From contig NC_083277.1 in assembly GCF_963506605.1 (NCBI RefSeq), positions 8,060,001 through 8,124,000 of the forward strand: a stretch of DNA of 64,000 nt. The letters are read 5' to 3'. The position numbers and the translations under genes are program-made. Positions 18,474 to 19,274 of the stretch are shown here, piece by piece. Numbering within the stretch: the stretch's first letter is position 1; each line of letters opens with the position of its first letter. The DNA is from Zootoca vivipara (Eukaryota). The notes below the pieces were generated by a model that saw nothing but the letters and a program-made list of their open reading frames with translations, made no database searches and was not told where the DNA came from.

Positions 18474-19274
18474 CTGCTCTTCCCAACTCTCTCCAGCATA
18501 AGCCCTCTGAAGGAAGTCCTCAGCCAGGGCCACCGCCTGGGAGCAGGTCTCCGGCCCGTGTTCCCCGACCCAGCTTTGCATCTCCAGCGGCAGGATGGCC
18601 AGGAACTGCTCCAGGATCAGCAGCTCCAGGATCTGCTCCTTCGAGCTCCTCTCCACCTTCAGCCACTGACCGCACAGCTGCTGGAGCTGCCCGTAAACGC
18701 CTCTTGGCCCCTCGGCCTCCTGGTAGCAGAACCGGCGGAAGTTCTGGCGCTGCCTCTCCCTGATGATGGCATCCCCACGCAAGATGGCCGCCTTGACCTT
18801 GTCATAGTCAATCCTGTCTCTGGTGTCCAGGTTGGTGAAGATCTGCTCGGCTTCCCCGCTGAGGGCTGGCAGAAGATGGGCCATCCAGTCCTCTCGGGGC
18901 CACCGGCACGCTTCTGCCACTTGCTCAAAGGAGGCCAGGAAAGACTTGGTGTTGTCCCACGGGGTGGGTTCCTCGAGGATCTGTGGTGTCTCCCATTCCA
19001 AGCGAGGGTATTCCAGGGTCTTCAGAAAGTCCTGCCACTGGGTTTCCCAACACTGAAGCAGCCCATTGCCAGTTTCCTGGTCTCCGGGAGGCCTCTGCAG
19101 GAATTCGCGGATGCTTCCGGCCTGGATGATGTAAGGGGCTTCTTCCAACCCTTCCCCTGAGGTGGAATCCGAGGTATCCTCGTCCTCCATTTTGATCTGC
19201 TGGGGGACTCCTTGCTCAAGCTCTGCGTGGAACCGCAGGCCAAAGCCAGACTGTGTCCCTTCCCTGACGGCCAT
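18474..19274 (-). CDS. ZNF-B coding exon 1: Gag-capsid-like extension plus SCAN domain
   Basis: ATG in Kozak context (AAGATGG). SCAN motif [16 protein letters not shown]...LCGQWLK...[18 protein letters not shown]...AVALAEDF. Donor CAG|GTGAGA. 801 nt, phase 0. Confidence 0.9.

What the first reader, a model, noticed from the sequence alone, without database searches (positions are those of the whole stretch)
18474..18960. Near-complete Gypsy Gag capsid-like domain fused to a 25-finger array, with a decay series across neighbours
Seen: upstream of SCAN, ZNF-B encodes [44 protein letters not shown]...[10 protein letters not shown] (about 18959-18768). Established: SCAN derives from the C-terminal part of Gmr1-like Gypsy Gag capsid, and extended Gag similarity has been reported in lizard SCAN-ZNFs. 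The FE..A....WP...W...L...L.G.A....DY..VK.AIL pattern is the adjacent capsid region. In this window it is intact in ZNF-B, eroded in ZNF-D (PWDVTKTCL...[10 protein letters not shown]), barely visible in ZNF-C, and deleted together with SCAN in ZNF-A. Inference: ZNF-B may keep a two-lobed capsid fold able to oligomerise or co-assemble with retrotransposon Gag (dominant-negative restriction). Beside putatively interferon-wired TRIMs, this suggests an anti-retroelement locus.
Basis: partly seen in the sequence, partly recalled or inferred. Interest (0 to 1): 0.75.

Follow-up and report, generated by a model that had tools for sequence, protein, structure and literature searches.

The report
Lizard ESCAN gene keeps capsid lobe
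This lizard gene carries, in front of its SCAN domain, a second piece taken from a retrotransposon capsid protein that is predicted to fold as the capsid's other lobe; this is a known reptile arrangement (ESCAN) shared by dozens of sister genes, and it likely serves as a protein-contact module of a DNA-binding regulator rather than as an anti-retrotransposon decoy.

Summary
The block before SCAN (18962-18771) is the published 'extended SCAN' (ESCAN). It is homologous to and colinear with the Gag segment before the SCAN-like lobe of Gmr1-like elements in this genome (19 of 62 identical). It is predicted to fold as a four-helix capsid lobe (Arc N-lobe Z 8.8, rmsd 2.1 A). It is not special to ZNF-B: at least 47 copies occur here, with hundreds of relatives in squamates, turtles and alligator. 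It evolves under purifying selection (dN/dS 0.23) with no positive selection (p 0.22). The 'decay series' is a set of separate old paralogues. D's remnant is significant, C's is not, and gene A leads to a Myb/SANT exon. The array has 23 canonical fingers, and its splicing to ESCAN is predicted, not shown. Dominant-negative restriction is unsupported: 24-27% identity to resident Gag, and that family has at least 150 near-identical copies. The likely role is a two-lobed interaction module on a nuclear regulator. Whether it assembles like a capsid is open and testable.

The parts
18474..19274 (-). ZNF-B first coding exon (267 aa) ending at a GT donor, phase 0
   Evidence: orthologues in lacertid, agamid, snakes and gecko
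18771..18962 (-). ESCAN extension: predicted four-helix capsid N-terminal lobe (residues 105-168)
   Evidence: pLDDT 88-96; Arc N-lobe Z 8.8 rmsd 2.1 over 66 residues, Ty3 CA-NTD Z 6.3 rmsd 3.3 over 69; colinear with Gmr1-like Gag; dN/dS 0.23
18504..18758 (-). SCAN domain (capsid C-terminal lobe)
   Evidence: Pfam PF02023 E 7.9e-38; solved SCAN structures
19008..19052 (-). conserved amphipathic helix upstream of the capsid lobes (W-E-x-Q-W-Q-x-F-L); no match to resident Gag found
   Evidence: column conservation 0.83-0.97 at seven positions in 131 sequences; separate helix in the model; no hit above 5 bits in five Gag frames
17112..17241 (-). predicted second exon (43 codons); no KRAB hit in Pfam
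   Evidence: splice sites; matches gecko and snake orthologue models; no family
12354..14821 (-). predicted last exon: linker and 23 canonical C2H2 fingers
   Evidence: the linker matches a gecko orthologue model; splicing to exon 1 not shown
36377..37165 (+). ZNF-D first exon: SCAN with an eroded but detectable extension
31240..32133 (-). ZNF-C first exon: SCAN; upstream helix motif kept, extension no longer detectable
1022..1456 (-). gene A exon: homologous N-terminal part, extension and SCAN both absent; next exon outside the window is Myb/SANT-like

Best explanation
ZNF-B is an ESCAN-type host gene whose first exon keeps two adjacent segments homologous to Gmr1-like retrotransposon Gag, predicted to fold as the two capsid lobes, which likely act as a protein-contact module on a nuclear DNA-binding regulator. 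Shown: homology and colinearity with Gag, family-wide presence, purifying selection. Predicted: the four-helix fold of the extension and splicing to 23 fingers. From knowledge of mammalian SCAN proteins: SCAN forms a domain-swapped dimer, and such proteins bind transposon-derived DNA and hold nucleosomes in place. Inferred: the N-lobe adds a second, subfamily-specific surface that picks partners or binds short peptides, as the Arc N-lobe does. It is kept in one branch of the family and was eroded or deleted in others, ending in the SCAN-only form typical of mammals.
For: Gag homology: profile hits of 20.6-28.5 bits in 5 of 5 Gag frames tested, with the same 66-residue offset to SCAN in host and element; elements have the order Gag-PR-IN-RT-RH. 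Fold: the first 38 rows for the two-lobe model and 34 of the first 35 for the extension model are capsids or capsid-derived. Constraint: dN/dS 0.22-0.23 against 0.11-0.12 for SCAN and 0.46 for the upstream linker in 37 paralogues; 57-58 of 64 residues identical in snake and agamid orthologues against 31-36 of 49 at the N-terminus. No positive selection (M2a against M1a p 0.22). The lobe is followed by SCAN in 323 of 341 cases. It is dispensable in most paralogues: 26 intact, 3 partial, 47 eroded, 74 absent among 150. SCAN dimerisation and nucleosome anchoring: passages of bioRxiv 10.1101/2025.03.03.638093.
Against: No expression, localisation, partner or DNA target was observed. 0 of 7 annotated orthologue models reach a finger array, so the nuclear-regulator premise rests on predicted splicing and on paralogues (162 of 287 fetched proteins with the lobe have three or more fingers). 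The 37 'intact' paralogues were chosen by similarity, which biases dN/dS downwards. Z-scores under about 13 for helical bundles can be commonplace, and the fold alone does not tell N-lobe from C-lobe. Only one of five two-lobe models reached pLDDT 82 (others 56-67). A young Gmr1-like family is present, so a capsid target exists.
Confidence: 0.6

Rival explanations
1. Both lobes are kept because ESCAN proteins build capsomer-like higher oligomers (rings of N-lobes linked by SCAN dimers) that would cluster many finger arrays on chromatin, among themselves and without any element protein.
For: The two lobes stay adjacent at Gag spacing. Both are constrained. Whole-length structural matches to capsid-forming Arc, dArc1, PNMA2 and Copia proteins. 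A large all-intact clade would allow mixed assemblies.
Against: A shared fold shows no assembly. Two-lobe matches have rmsd 6-9 A, so lobe orientation is not capsid-specific in the model. SCAN dimers are domain-swapped (title of PDB 1y7q), a different geometry from most lattices (recalled). About 860 predicted residues follow the module.
Confidence: 0.18
2. One reading: ESCAN proteins are dominant-negative decoys that co-assemble with or bind Gmr1-like Gag and restrict the element.
For: A young target exists: 150 of 150 scored matches at 98-100% identity (458 candidates), with 300-base repeats 99-100% identical in 3 of 3 copies examined. Orthologue models end before the fingers. Capsid targeting by SCAN was proposed in 2011 (as cited in PMC4592553).
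Against: Only 35 of 147 and 40 of 146 residues are identical to the two resident Gag types. No positive selection, and near 90% conservation from lizards to snakes, unlike an arms-race factor. The element family expanded despite at least 37 intact ESCAN exons. No ISRE core near ZNF-B. The review states that experimental evidence is lacking.
Confidence: 0.12
3. The extension has no binding role of its own. It survives only because a folded appendage is tolerated while a half-folded one is harmful, and is lost whenever a clean deletion or full erosion occurs.
For: 121 of 150 top SCAN exons have eroded or lost it; scores are bimodal; a 65-member clade without it expanded recently (SH-aLRT 97); about a quarter of its sites fall in the neutral class.
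Against: Retention in squamates, turtles and alligator, 57-58 of 64 identity in distant orthologues and invariant residues beyond a plausible core. Eroded copies persist in open frames, so unfolded versions are tolerated.
Confidence: 0.1

Closest known systems
ESCAN (extended SCAN) zinc-finger genes of Anolis, Emerson and Thomas 2011 (original not held; seen through passages of PMC3406341 and PMC4592553)
   Same: SCAN preceded by further Gmr1-like capsid sequence, in lizard zinc-finger genes; described as derived from a full-length capsid gene
   Different: Nothing in kind. Added here: a predicted N-lobe fold, dN/dS, counts of intact, eroded and absent states, and presence in turtles and alligator. 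Whether the 2011 paper or its supplements already give these could not be checked.
Mammalian SCAN zinc-finger proteins (ZNF24, ZNF174, MZF1, PEG3; PF02023)
   Same: SCAN domain, predicted exon order SCAN - short middle exon - finger exon, tandem clusters
   Different: They are described as having only the C-terminal capsid portion; no mammalian protein was listed in three word-limited searches with the extension
Domesticated two-lobed metaviral capsids: Arc, dArc1, PNMA2, PEG10
   Same: Predicted tandem four-helix capsid lobes; best structural match is the Arc N-lobe
   Different: Separate origin (Gmr1-like); multi-exon gene with a predicted finger array; particle formation not shown
Gag-derived restriction factors (Fv1; Ty1-derived Drt2, PDB 9rxy; RTL8 against PEG10)
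   Same: Host gene with a capsid-derived domain and a related element in the genome
   Different: 24-27% identity to the resident Gag, no positive selection, dozens of paralogues, predicted nuclear; no restriction data

Membership tests
ESCAN-type SCAN zinc-finger gene | SCAN domain | tested here: met
   PF02023 128.6 bits, cut-off 27
ESCAN-type SCAN zinc-finger gene | Upstream extension homologous to Gmr1-like capsid | tested here: met
   5 of 5 Gag frames hit; 19/62 and 18/62 identical; same offset to SCAN
ESCAN-type SCAN zinc-finger gene | Host gene, not part of an element | tested here: met
   Splice donor right after SCAN, no protease, integrase or RT frame following, orthologues across squamates
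ESCAN-type SCAN zinc-finger gene | Joined to a C2H2 array in one protein | tested here: inconclusive
   Open three-exon frame possible; 0 of 7 orthologue models include fingers; no reads laid
KRAB zinc-finger repressor | Recognisable KRAB domain in the middle exon | tested here: not met
   No Pfam family at E up to 1; a faint likeness to KRAB-A is recalled and judged by eye only
Metaviral two-lobed capsid (Ty3, Arc, PNMA2) | Four-helix N-lobe followed by C-lobe | tested here: met
   Predicted models only; Z 8.8 and 6.3 to Arc and Ty3 N-lobes; both lobes aligned to Arc, Z 9.8, rmsd 9.3 over 147
Metaviral two-lobed capsid (Ty3, Arc, PNMA2) | Assembles into capsomers or particles | not testable with these tools
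   Needs biophysics or EM
Gag-derived restriction factor | Close similarity to the target capsid, as expected for co-assembly (recalled; Fv1-type binding does not need it) | tested here: not met
   24% and 27% identity
Gag-derived restriction factor | Sites under positive selection | tested here: not met
   M2a against M1a p 0.22 over 64 codons and 37 paralogues; limited power
Gag-derived restriction factor | Binds the capsid and lowers element activity | not testable with these tools
   No data

The most novel reading that the evidence does not exclude
Reptiles keep dozens of complete two-lobed Gmr1-derived capsid proteins that still assemble: as capsomer-like scaffolds for finger arrays, or, in finger-less isoforms such as the short orthologue models suggest, as decoys that poison the Gmr1-like family now amplifying in this genome.
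Probability: 0.2. Interest if true: 0.75.

Novelty: new member of a known kind. Interest (0 to 1): 0.33.

Why it matters
As a single gene it is ordinary: one of at least 37 intact ESCAN exons recovered from this genome. The family view is more useful. Reptile ESCAN genes are a large set of domesticated two-lobed capsids that a recent capsid survey set aside because it did not model SCAN (PMC10516033, passages). This genome holds intact, eroded and deleted states together with a young Gmr1-like family, so the 2011 idea that SCAN proteins engage retroelement capsids can be tested directly with matched proteins. If assembly or capsid binding were shown, a transcription-factor family would double as a capsid-based scaffold or defence.

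Tried and rejected
Sequence search of solved structures found only SCAN, not the extension; Pfam has no real family for it. Foldseek gave only weak E-values: one at or under 0.001 for the two-lobe model, none for the extension model or the viral library. The Atlas search gave SCAN clusters and sub-0.9 leads only. The representatives search (8288 hits, unnamed, both lobes together) added nothing specific. Complex prediction of four copies of the lobe: no verdict, score 0.00, alignment not used; it is no evidence either way. Expression: no RNA holder listed and no reads could be laid, so transcription and splicing remain open. The third homologue search, aimed at Gmr1 polyproteins, listed reptile host proteins instead; Gag was then found in the own genome. 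Interferon wiring: GAAANNGAAA 7 matches against 5.0 +/- 2.3 (26 of 100 shuffles as high); stricter pattern 1 against 1.2. Rejected: ZNF-B as a fresh element insertion (splice donor, orthologues, 24-27% identity to resident Gag); the four neighbours as successive decay stages (a quick tree on 84 columns with most forks unresolved). Emerson and Thomas 2011 is not held. Searches for a structural or selection study of ESCAN found none, in a library that lacks most subscription papers. Earlier scan findings: none.

Full report
Observation. The minus-strand frame 19307-18462 is open and gives a 267-residue exon from the ATG at 19274 to a GT donor after 18474. Pfam finds SCAN at residues 173-257 and no real family for the block before it. 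The closest named protein is from Podarcis muralis (61 of 64 and 79 of 84 identical in block and SCAN), so the host is most likely a lacertid lizard. The finger exon at 14843-12354 has 23 canonical fingers and two broken slots seen by eye. Splice sites allow an open three-exon protein of 1129-1132 residues. Gecko and snake orthologue models share exon 2 and the start of exon 3, but 0 of 7 orthologue models include fingers. No reads could be laid, so the fusion is predicted only.

What the block is. A search of the own genome with a divergent paralogue returned weak dispersed hits in long frames. Six were fetched and five examined. They are LTR elements with the Gmr1 order Gag(SCAN-like, zinc knuckle)-PR-IN-RT-RH, complete in the longest and partial or split over frames in the others, with 99-100% identical 300-base repeats in 3 of 3 examined. 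A profile of the host block hits all five Gag frames (20.6-28.5 bits) at the same 66-residue offset from the SCAN-like lobe as in the host; ZNF-B shares 19 of 62 and 18 of 62 residues there, and 35 of 147 and 40 of 146 over both lobes. AlphaFold2 models give four helices with pLDDT 88-96 (two-lobe model 81.8, best of five, others 56-67). Against 48,161 solved chains, the extension's best match is the Arc N-lobe (Z 8.8, rmsd 2.1, 66 residues), with dArc1 and Ty3 N-lobes at Z 7.1 and 6.3; 34 of the first 35 rows are capsid-derived. The first 38 rows for the two-lobe model are too. These Z-scores are modest for helical bundles and include C-lobes, since both lobes share one fold (PMC6525542, passages). 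The N-lobe assignment therefore rests on position and Gag colinearity.

It is family-wide. The block matches 47 places in this genome among 150 candidates scored of 319, 549 of 611 and 114 of 124 candidate proteins in two length classes (the named ones listed are squamates plus one alligator), and turtles. I fetched the DNA upstream of the 150 best-scoring SCAN exons (of 645 candidates): 26 intact, 3 partial, 47 eroded, 74 absent by score rules. The rules put ZNF-D under 'absent' although its remnant is significant by alignment. Intact copies span C2 6.4-10.9 Mb and two other contigs, so lying beside these TRIMs is not a property of the class.

Decay series. D has a real remnant, C does not (p 0.28), and A lacks both lobes and leads to a Myb/SANT exon. 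In a quick tree of 166 SCAN domains (84 columns, 102 of 155 forks open; D relabelled as eroded by hand), B lies in a 22-member all-intact clade (SH-aLRT 93), C and D lie apart among eroded copies, and 65 copies without the lobe form one clade (97). These are old paralogues in different states, not stages of one lineage.

Selection. Among 37 intact paralogues dN/dS is 0.22 for the lobe, 0.12 for SCAN and 0.46 for the upstream linker. My own codon model gives 0.23, rejects neutrality (log-likelihood -3767 against -3941) and finds no positively selected class (p 0.22). Choosing intact copies biases this downwards. Orthologues are independent of that choice: 57-58 of 64 identical in an agamid and two snakes, against 31-36 of 49 at the N-terminus; the gecko model has 49 of 64 and skips SCAN.

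Mechanism. Most likely (0.6) the two lobes are a protein-contact module on a nuclear regulator. SCAN dimerisation and nucleosome anchoring on transposon-derived DNA are reported for human SCAN proteins (bioRxiv 10.1101/2025.03.03.638093, passages); the N-lobe as an added partner-selecting surface is my inference. Capsomer-like self-assembly (0.18) is open. The decoy reading (0.12) has a possible target, since 150 of 150 scored Gag matches are 98-100% identical. But that family expanded in spite of the ESCAN genes, identity to it is 24-27%, and there is no arms-race signal. ISRE cores are not enriched and none lies near ZNF-B. A tolerated remnant (0.1) fits the frequent loss but not the orthologue conservation.

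Known or new. A review describes the 'extended SCAN (ESCAN) domain', derived from a full-length Gmr1-like capsid gene and joined to fingers in Anolis (PMC3406341, passages). Another reports the speculation that SCAN targets retroviral capsids and notes that evidence is lacking (PMC4592553, passages). Both cite Emerson and Thomas 2011, which I could not read; its text and supplements may already contain part of what I found. I also saw passages of PMC10516033, PMC8321522, PMC3424704 and PMC12262214. Five searches found no structural or selection study of ESCAN. Verdict: a new member of a known kind; the capsid-lobe reading is right, while the special status, the series and the restriction role are unsupported. 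Interest 0.33.

Noticed in passing
L162-L167; genome-wide: A young, abundant Gmr1-like LTR family (Gag-PR-IN-RT-RH order): 150 of 150 scored capsid matches at 98-100% identity, many in frames over 1000 codons, plus at least one more family about 60% identical. A 2025 preprint describes Gmr1-like elements as depleted in reptilian genomes (passage).
   Followed up: partly
paralogue set: A [VIL]-K-x-E motif (SUMO consensus, recalled) lies within 25 residues before SCAN in 27 of 48 eroded copies against 1 of 37 intact ones, where the lobe's last helix was; the same motif lies further upstream in 22 of 37 intact and 34 of 48 eroded copies.
   Followed up: partly
window 19008-19052 and paralogues: A tryptophan-rich helix upstream of the capsid lobes is conserved and often outlives the lobe in eroded paralogues; no match to resident Gag and no known family.
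   Followed up: partly
window 1022-1456; L160 7529-8266: Gene A has lost both capsid lobes in frame and appears to continue into a Myb/SANT-like exon rather than fingers.
   Followed up: partly
P0123-P0127, P0399, P0400: All 7 annotated orthologue models of ZNF-B stop before any finger array (268-404 aa) while the capsid exon stays near 90% identical; either model truncation or a finger-less form.
   Followed up: partly
window 44661-44670: One ISRE-core-like GAAANNGAAA 60 bases before the first TRIM's start codon; the pattern is not enriched in the window.
   Followed up: partly
window 44707-54025 and 60950-61690: Two RING-B-box TRIM genes (the first with a PRY-SPRY exon) with near-identical first exons; not compared with the antiviral harbiTRIM clade (PMC12262214, passages).
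   Followed up: no
L161 2701-4452; C2 4.79-5.06 Mb: A recent cluster of 10 near-identical genes with a long first frame; the one scanned has a BED finger ahead of SCAN and no capsid N-lobe.
   Followed up: partly
L163 1-2839: Tandem array of a 146-base unit flanking a Gmr1-like copy on both sides, as if the element inserted into a satellite.
   Followed up: no
P0044, P0049, P0071, P0096, P0220: In other squamates ESCAN exons are annotated fused to pogo/Tigger, Myb/SANT, MULE or BED domains instead of C2H2 arrays (Pfam lists).
   Followed up: no
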